Shown: positions 19,252-19,520 of the stretch, piece after piece | Layout of the letters: the number at the start of each line of letters is the position of its first letter | Position numbering within the stretch: the stretch's first letter is position 1 | NCBI GenBank assembly: GCA_964016885.1 | Contig: OZ024761.1 | Coordinates: 24,552,001-24,616,000 of the forward strand | DNA: 64,000 nucleotides | Direction: 5' to 3' | DNA from: Eledone cirrhosa | Taxonomy: Eukaryota | Made by a program: the position numbers and the translations under genes | The notes under the pieces: model-generated | What the model was told of the DNA's origin: nothing | What the model saw: only the letters and a program-made list of their open reading frames with translations | The model's database searches: none

Positions 19252-19520
19252 ATATGTATAAATATTTGGTATCTCCAAAGAAATACAATTTTAGGAAACC
19301 GTAGCTATGCAAACACCGGGGTGCTAACGCCCTCTGGTGATGTCCAGCAGAAGCAAGGGGGACCGTCCTGACGAAGGCCAGTTAAGCCTGAAATGCATAG
19401 ACGGTTGTCCCCCTTGCTTCTGCTGGACATCACCAGAGGGCGTCTTTAGGCCCCCGGTGTTTGCATAGCTACGGCTCCTAAAACTGTATTTCTTTGGAGA
19501 TACAAAATATTTATACATAT
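19252..19520. mobile_element. ~270-bp fold-back element with an intact hammerhead at its apex
   Basis: Arms 19252-19361 and 19407-19520 are reverse complements. Confidence 0.85.
19362..19405 (+). ncRNA. Minimal type I hammerhead ribozyme
   Basis: ACCGTC-CTGACGA-AGGC(CAGTTAA)GCCT-GAAA-TGCA-TA-GACGGT; perfect stems I and II, palindromic stem III. Confidence 0.88.

What the first reader, a model, noticed from the sequence alone, without database searches (positions are those of the whole stretch)
19252..19520. Intact hammerhead sitting at the exact apex of a 110-bp-arm hairpin
Seen: ACCGTC-CTGACGA-AGGC/GCCT-GAAA-TGCA-TA-GACGGT is the only non-palindromic part, and stem I continues into the long inverted arms. 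Predicted cleavage follows 19399. Inference: cDNA folded back on ribozyme stem I and primed copying of its own tail. A transcript would be a rod-like dsRNA with a self-opening cap.
Basis: partly seen in the sequence, partly recalled or inferred. Interest (0 to 1): 0.75.

Follow-up and report, generated by a model that had tools for sequence, protein, structure and literature searches.

The report
Inverted Penelope-type retrozyme insertion
This hairpin is one of hundreds of copies of a small jumping repeat that carries a standard self-cutting RNA motif; most sampled copies sit as two truncated halves joined head to head, likely because copying started from both DNA strands, and the ribozyme lying at the tip of this copy is likely chance.

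Summary
The hairpin and the type I hammerhead sequence are real. The element starts at about 19215, not 19252. It is one insertion of a ~323-nt repeat with hundreds of copies (668 exact tail matches), partly in direct tandems. Of 131 position-ordered loci, 86 are head-to-head inversions with junctions all over the unit; the hammerhead is at the apex in 2 of 86, about chance. Of 63 with two defined ends, 60 have one short end and one end about 40 nt longer. Inversion plus tail in (TA)n is the published signature of Penelope-like elements; the unit fits animal non-LTR retrozymes. Simple cDNA fold-back cannot make this copy: each arm holds sequence the other lacks. Likely mechanism (inferred): both target strands prime reverse transcription, at two start sites on the same uncut RNA, and the cDNAs join at microhomology, here 5 nt from stem I. 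Cleavage, expression and the partner element are not shown. The scan noted a similar hairpin in another genome (e1-9539494). Verdict: known kind of element; the end-pairing statistics give a modest, testable clue to the mechanism.

The parts
19170..19213 (.). (TA)n/(CA)n microsatellite, left flank (target)
19215..19251 (-). 37-nt tail present on the left arm only (unit positions u1-u37; 'long' end)
   Evidence: L001; contigs of public runs diverge from the window left of 19215
19252..19363 (-). Left arm: inverted, 5'-truncated copy of the unit (u212-u323), without hammerhead
19359..19363 (.). 5-nt overlap shared by both arms: the inversion junction
   Evidence: one search compared with the normal unit; null distribution
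19359..19520 (+). Right arm: 5'-truncated direct copy (u164-u323) ending at the 'short' end
19362..19405 (+). Type I hammerhead motif: stem I 6 bp, core 19368-19374, stem II 4 bp with 7-nt loop, GAAA, palindromic helix III 19393-19398; predicted cut after 19399 (not tested)
   Evidence: 456 exact genomic matches of the 33-nt core region
19406..19408 (+). 3-nt bulge after stem I; position 1.7 is U, as in the reported loop I-loop II contact (contact inferred only)
19517..19531 (.). (TA)n microsatellite, right flank (overlaps the ambiguous last bases of the arm)

Best explanation
This is one 5'-truncated, head-to-head insertion of a ~323-nt hammerhead-bearing repeat family that is likely a non-autonomous retrozyme moved by a Penelope-like reverse transcriptase/endonuclease, and its hairpin likely arose when both nicked strands of a (TA)n target primed reverse transcription and the two cDNAs were joined. 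Shown: multi-copy family, tandem units, head-to-head majority, one long and one short end per insertion, junctions spread over the unit, shared subfamily alleles in the two arms, 5-nt overlap at this junction. Inferred: one strand starts at the 'long' site and the other at the 'short' site about 40 nt upstream, on the same uncut multimeric or circular RNA; each cDNA stops at a variable point, often at a start site one unit upstream; the two 3' ends join, helped by short complementarity. Here that complementarity came from stem I, which left the hammerhead at the tip. The copy is then likely a neutrally decaying insertion with no function of its own.
For: Family size: 668, 582 and 456 exact matches of three short patterns; reversed controls 0. 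Period of 323 nt in direct arrays. Head-to-head in 61 of 86 tail-anchored loci, 20 of 40 newly fetched hammerhead-anchored loci, 86 of 131 in the union. Ends where both are defined: 60 long+short, 2 long+long, 1 short+short; 1 long+long among 46 against one third expected under independent choice, p = 3e-7. The long arm is the longer one in only 24 of 60; neither arm contains the other in 29 of 60; median spacer 136 nt. Arm 5' ends pile up at the short site (11 of 172, 2.7 expected) and the long site (20 of 172, 9.1 expected), also in the 40 new loci alone (3 and 7 of 40 ends; 0.6 and 2.1 expected), but not at the ribozyme cut (2 of 172, 3.7 expected); 100 of 122 arms run through the cut site. 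Arms of one locus agree at polymorphic sites in 247 of 282 comparisons against 60% between loci. Literature: inverted 5'-truncated copy plus a 30-40 bp tail at either end and (TA)n targeting are Penelope-like features (PMC8557442; PMC3846280); a purified Penelope-like protein cuts and extends both target strands from two RNA start sites that delimit the tail, with uncut RNA as main substrate (PMC11167929); animal retrozymes are short type I hammerhead repeats linked to pseudo-LTRs (PMC7229834; bioRxiv 10.64898/2026.07.22.740005).
Against: No autonomous partner was found: no similarity to the unit in 60 loci of two Penelope-like families, apart from the two source loci that already held it. In vitro, no difference in start site between the two strands was seen, so the strict long+short pairing is not explained by that paper. 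Arm-length correlation (rho 0.07) does not separate this model from long-loop fold-back with random trimming. The excess of rare alleles shared by in-register arms (12.8% against 4.6% one unit off) fits one template but equally fold-back or later gene conversion, and two loci give 11 of the 42 shared sites. Microhomology is modest: of 61 junctions 53 could be anchored, 30 showed gaps or mismatches, and 10 of the other 23 had 2 nt or more (16% expected). Both pile-up sites are AT-rich and structured, which could cause stops or alignment bias. Samples come from one chromosome and need an exact pattern match, so they favour young copies. Arrays are short (longest arm 700-742 nt).
Confidence: 0.7

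Rival explanations
1. Self-priming fold-back: one cDNA or an antisense RNA folds back and is copied into a hairpin intermediate; the Penelope endonuclease then resolves it and removes the tail from one end at random. This is the first reader's idea extended by a trimming step, and close to the hypothesis of Arkhipova et al. 2013.
For: Published hypothesis for head-to-head palindromic junctions; tail ascribed to endonuclease resolution. It gives exactly one tail per insertion. In-register arms share more rare alleles. The junction here lies in stem I, and near-identical stem I junctions recur in the set chosen by similarity to the hairpin. Arm-length statistics cannot exclude it.
Against: It needs long loops: median spacer 136 nt, only 16 of 60 at 60 nt or less. 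It needs a free intermediate, because a target-primed first strand cannot lose or gain the tail; 29 of 60 loci are mutually non-nested. In vitro data show target priming on both strands and two start sites that explain the tail without trimming.
Confidence: 0.2
2. The apex hammerhead is a selected design: a rod-like double-stranded RNA with a self-opening cap that has its own function or replication cycle.
For: Very stable hairpin; intact core; one other locus has the same junction.
Against: 2 exact junction matches against 582 normal contexts; apex frequency 2 of 86 against about 3.9% by chance; the arms have drifted apart at the family-typical rate; core positions vary almost as much as the rest (2.5% against 3.2-3.8%); helix III is of the dimer-dependent kind.
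Confidence: 0.04
3. A foldback DNA transposon or MITE with terminal inverted repeats, or inversion by later DNA recombination between nearby copies.
For: Long inverted arms in an AT-rich target.
Against: The ends are asymmetric by about 40 nt, inner junctions vary, direct tandems and 5'-truncated single copies exist (25 of 86), and both outer ends are always 3' ends of the unit. A target-site duplication cannot be scored in (TA)n.
Confidence: 0.04

Closest known systems
Head-to-head inverted pseudo-LTR insertions with optional tail of endonuclease-bearing Penelope-like elements (PMC8557442; PMC3846280; PMC11167929)
   Same: Inverted 5'-truncated copy joined at the 5' end; 30-40 nt tail on one end only, on either arm; partial tandems; AT-rich or (TA)n targets; hammerhead upstream of the two ends.
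   Different: No ORF. The start sites lie about 140 and 180 nt after stem II, against 111-118 nt into the ORF for the main site in the lizard element. The hammerhead is of the canonical (6 bp/4 bp) form, not the minimal form with long stem II. Partner not identified.
Animal non-LTR retrozymes (PMC7229834; bioRxiv 10.64898/2026.07.22.740005)
   Same: Non-coding unit of 323 nt with one canonical type I hammerhead, direct tandem units, structured RNA (z = -6.1), many dispersed copies in a genome rich in Penelope-like elements.
   Different: Mostly 1-2 units per arm and mostly head-to-head; the word 'inverted' does not occur in the 2020 paper and 'tail' does not occur in the 2026 preprint. Circular RNA and cleavage not shown here.
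L1 twin priming with 5' inversion
   Same: Both target strands prime; both outer ends are 3' ends of RNA segments; the junction can show microhomology.
   Different: In L1 the two arms are different parts of one RNA. Here both arms copy the same repeat sequence and start at two fixed sites 40 nt apart.

Membership tests
Canonical metazoan type I hammerhead | Conserved core with helix I 6 bp, helix II 4 bp, helix III 1-2 bp with a small palindromic loop | tested here: met
   against the description in PMC4209133
Canonical metazoan type I hammerhead | Match to a curated Rfam hammerhead model | tested here: not met
   no hit at gathering score or up to E = 10; the very short helix III may be the reason (inference)
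Canonical metazoan type I hammerhead | Covariation in the helices | not tested
   family copies are about 96% alike, too close to be informative
Canonical metazoan type I hammerhead | Self-cleavage | not testable with these tools
   needs a cleavage assay; only 1 of 9 Xenopus dimers cut in vitro
Animal non-LTR retrozyme | Non-coding unit of 150-450 nt with one type I hammerhead | tested here: met
   323-nt unit, stops in all three sense frames
Animal non-LTR retrozyme | Direct tandem units, at least two hammerheads in a row in some loci | tested here: met
   for example L002, L004, L006, L025; arrays are short, and the window's copy has one hammerhead
Animal non-LTR retrozyme | Expression as linear and circular RNA | not testable with these tools
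Penelope-like element (non-autonomous derivative) | Inverted 5'-truncated copy adjacent at the 5' end | tested here: met
   86 of 131 loci
Penelope-like element (non-autonomous derivative) | 30-40 bp tail at one end | tested here: met
   60 of 63 loci with two defined ends; 37 nt in the window
Penelope-like element (non-autonomous derivative) | Bias for AT-rich or microsatellite targets | tested here: met
   TA/CA runs next to 38 of 61 left and 38 of 61 right ends; no genomic background was computed
Penelope-like element (non-autonomous derivative) | Homology to the pseudo-LTR of an RT + GIY-YIG element | tested here: inconclusive
   none in 60 loci of two families; other families in the genome were not examined
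Foldback DNA transposon / MITE | Symmetric terminal inverted repeats, constant structure | tested here: not met
   asymmetric ends, variable junctions, single-orientation copies

The most novel reading that the evidence does not exclude
Penelope-type integration is a coordinated twin-priming reaction: one complex primes the two target strands from two different fixed sites on one (possibly circular) RNA, which is why nearly every inverted insertion has exactly one tail and why arms tend to stop at a start site one full unit upstream. This retrozyme family would be a natural record of several hundred such events, and insertion-signature evidence that retrozymes are moved by Penelope enzymes. 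I found no paper stating this in three searches (open-access library only).
Probability: 0.45. Interest if true: 0.5.

Novelty: new member of a known kind. Interest (0 to 1): 0.3.

Why it matters
The locus itself matters little: it is one decaying copy. The family matters modestly. How Penelope-like elements make their inverted ends is stated as open (PMC8557442, PMC11167929), and how retrozymes move is stated as unresolved (2026 preprint). A short, young family with hundreds of inversions gives counts that a mechanism must explain: one long and one short end, free junction position, stops at the start sites, no stops at the ribozyme cut. These can be tested in the existing in vitro system. 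Hundreds of 100-400 bp inverted repeats could also be a source of double-stranded RNA if transcribed; that is untested.

Tried and rejected
Rfam: nothing at gathering score; sub-threshold miRNA-precursor matches such as mir-2005 (45.9 bits, threshold 61.4) reflect the hairpin shape and were rejected. Search for the partner: a Pfam accession recalled from memory was not in the library; two Penelope-like ORF fragments from neighbouring DNA found large families but no similarity to the unit; shared upstream flanks in L011, L047 and L087 and a 1.9-kb gap in L205 turned out to be Helitron-like insertions. Expression: no RNA holder listed, which is no evidence either way; four public runs of unrecorded kind hold the family as contigs, none spanning the locus. 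Arm-length correlation was tried as a test of fold-back and is uninformative. The energy of a constrained hammerhead fold left out outer pairs and is not comparable with the minimum-energy fold, so it was not used. Exact microhomology mapping is blurred by later mutations. Enrichment of arm ends at the ribozyme cut was tested and not found. Earlier notes on a rearranged hammerhead in this genome concern another motif. Supplements were not read; those of the 2026 preprint are closed and could list related families.

Full report
Observation. The sequence is as described. The arms 19252-19363 and about 19407-19520 align at 92% over 115 columns, and the region folds at -200.3 kcal/mol, z = -24, better than all 200 shuffles. 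A descriptor scan of the window finds the type I hammerhead at 19368 and three motifs of another family. Helix I has 6 bp, helix II 4 bp, and helix III only 2 bp around a palindromic 2-nt loop. This is the canonical metazoan type I form, reported to cut poorly as a monomer and well as a dimer (PMC4209133, passages; PMC7229834, parts 2-3 and passages). Position 1.7 is U and loop II ends in A, as in the reported tertiary contact (PMC11875169, passages); the contact itself is inferred. Rfam does not report it.

The family. The window lies in a 3.0-Gb genome. The hairpin found 1,940 candidates, of which 40 were scored. Three exact patterns gave 668 (tail), 582 (normal context upstream of the hammerhead) and 456 (hammerhead) matches, with 0 for the reversed controls. 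The true unit is about 323 nt and occurs in direct tandems. I used one real copy (L020:1764-2086) as ruler: core u173-u204, predicted cut after u204. The unit folds well on its own (z = -6.1) and has a long imperfect extension of stem I. It has stops in all three sense frames. Mean divergence from the majority base is 3.9%; 136 of 178 units covering the core are intact; core positions vary at 2.5% against 3.2-3.8% elsewhere (299 segments from 136 loci). An intact core is thus what a young family gives.

Architecture of insertions. To avoid choosing copies that look like the window's, I took loci in order of position. The first 100 of 668 tail matches (all on C1) collapse to 86 loci; the first 100 of 456 hammerhead matches (also C1) collapse to 78 loci, 40 of them new. 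Head-to-head inversions: 61 of 86, 20 of the 40 new, 86 of the 131 in the union. Both outer ends are 3' ends of the unit and fall at two places about 40 nt apart: short (u316-u8) and long (u34-u51). Of the 86, 23 have one end at neither place and were left out of the next count; of the other 63, 60 are long+short, 2 long+long and 1 short+short. In the tail-anchored set 1 long+long among 46 compares with one third under independent choice (p = 3e-7). TA or CA runs flank 38 of 61 ends on each side. In the window the long end is on the left: the element begins at about 19215, with a 37-nt tail that the right arm lacks.

Is the apex special? No. Arm starts are spread over the unit (KS p = 0.11; 26 of 122 in the stem I strands, 22.7 expected). 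The hammerhead is at the apex in 2 of 86 inversions, against 3.9% for random junctions. The window's exact junction occurs twice in the genome. Stem I does supply the join here: a 5-nt overlap at 19359-19363, a length reached by 0.7% of random junctions. Among the 27 loci picked by similarity to the hairpin, similar stem I junctions recur with the tail on either arm, so stem I is probably a minor, recurrent joining site, but that set is selected for it.

Mechanism. A target-primed cDNA that folds back gives a second arm contained in the first. In the window neither arm contains the other. Across loci the long arm is the longer in 24 of 60, neither contains the other in 29 of 60, and the median spacer is 136 nt. 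The two arms do come from the same lineage: 247 of 282 polymorphic-site comparisons agree, against 60% between loci. Rare alleles are shared more by in-register arms (12.8%) than one unit off (4.6%) (69 long+short loci, two of which give 11 of 42 sites; conversion could do the same). Arm 5' ends pile up at the short site (11 of 172, 2.7 expected) and the long site (20 of 172, 9.1 expected), not at the cut (2, 3.7 expected), and 100 of 122 arms run through the cut. A purified lizard Penelope-like protein nicks and extends both strands, starts at two RNA sites that delimit the tail, and uses uncut RNA (PMC11167929, parts 1-2 of 4). I therefore infer priming from both strands, one at each site, on one multimeric or circular RNA, with head-to-head joining. 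The pairing of sites, the single template and its circularity are inferred. The main rival is self-priming with later endonuclease trimming, proposed for rotifer Penelope elements (PMC3846280, passages). Arm-length correlation cannot separate the two; long loops and the in vitro data weigh against it.

Comparison. An inverted 5'-truncated copy, a 30-40 bp tail at either end and microsatellite targets are described features of Penelope-like elements (PMC8557442, passages). A short non-coding tandem unit with a canonical type I hammerhead is a non-LTR retrozyme, and a 2026 preprint ties these to pseudo-LTRs (10.64898/2026.07.22.740005, parts 1 and 3 of 5 and passages). The partner was not found in 60 loci of two Penelope-like families (the clade labels Neptune-like and Poseidon-like are recalled from motifs and come from no call). 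Searches for twin priming in Penelope elements found nothing relevant.

Verdict. This is a new member of a known kind, and this copy is probably incidental. Interest 0.3, for the end-pairing and stop-site counts, which bear on an open mechanism and can be tested.

Noticed in passing
window 5788-6198; a further copy of the motif at 56204 (-): A second, unrelated hammerhead family forms the same kind of head-to-head insertion in (TA)n: arms of about 143 nt at about 96-97%, a hammerhead with long stem II and palindromic TA helix III in each arm, and about 105 extra nt on one end only. Relatives occur in L016, L150 and other loci.
   Followed up: partly
L011, L019, L047, L083, L087, L205 (unit position u320|u321): Helitron-like elements (5' TC, 3' GC-rich hairpin and CTAG; label recalled) sit between A and T at the same position of the unit, the short end; at least two different inserts, and L205 has two such inserts interrupting consecutive units. 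It may be a preference for a common ACA|TAT target or for the small hairpin there.
   Followed up: partly
L206 (G000:C1:381877500-381881000): A head-to-head insertion repeated in tandem with a period of about 530 nt, giving alternating orientations.
   Followed up: no
L145-L174: A young Penelope-like family: all 135 scored hits are at least 97% identical to the query, open frames up to 1,217 aa, several inverted pairs; a hammerhead-like core follows the ORF in L155.
   Followed up: no
unit positions u116, u129, u180, u288: Subfamily variants; the u180 A-to-T variant (30 of 191) breaks the first pair of stem II and is linked to u116 C.
   Followed up: partly
window 17007-17273 and 18491-18660: Copies of a short interspersed repeat in both orientations near the locus; not related to the finding.
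   Followed up: no
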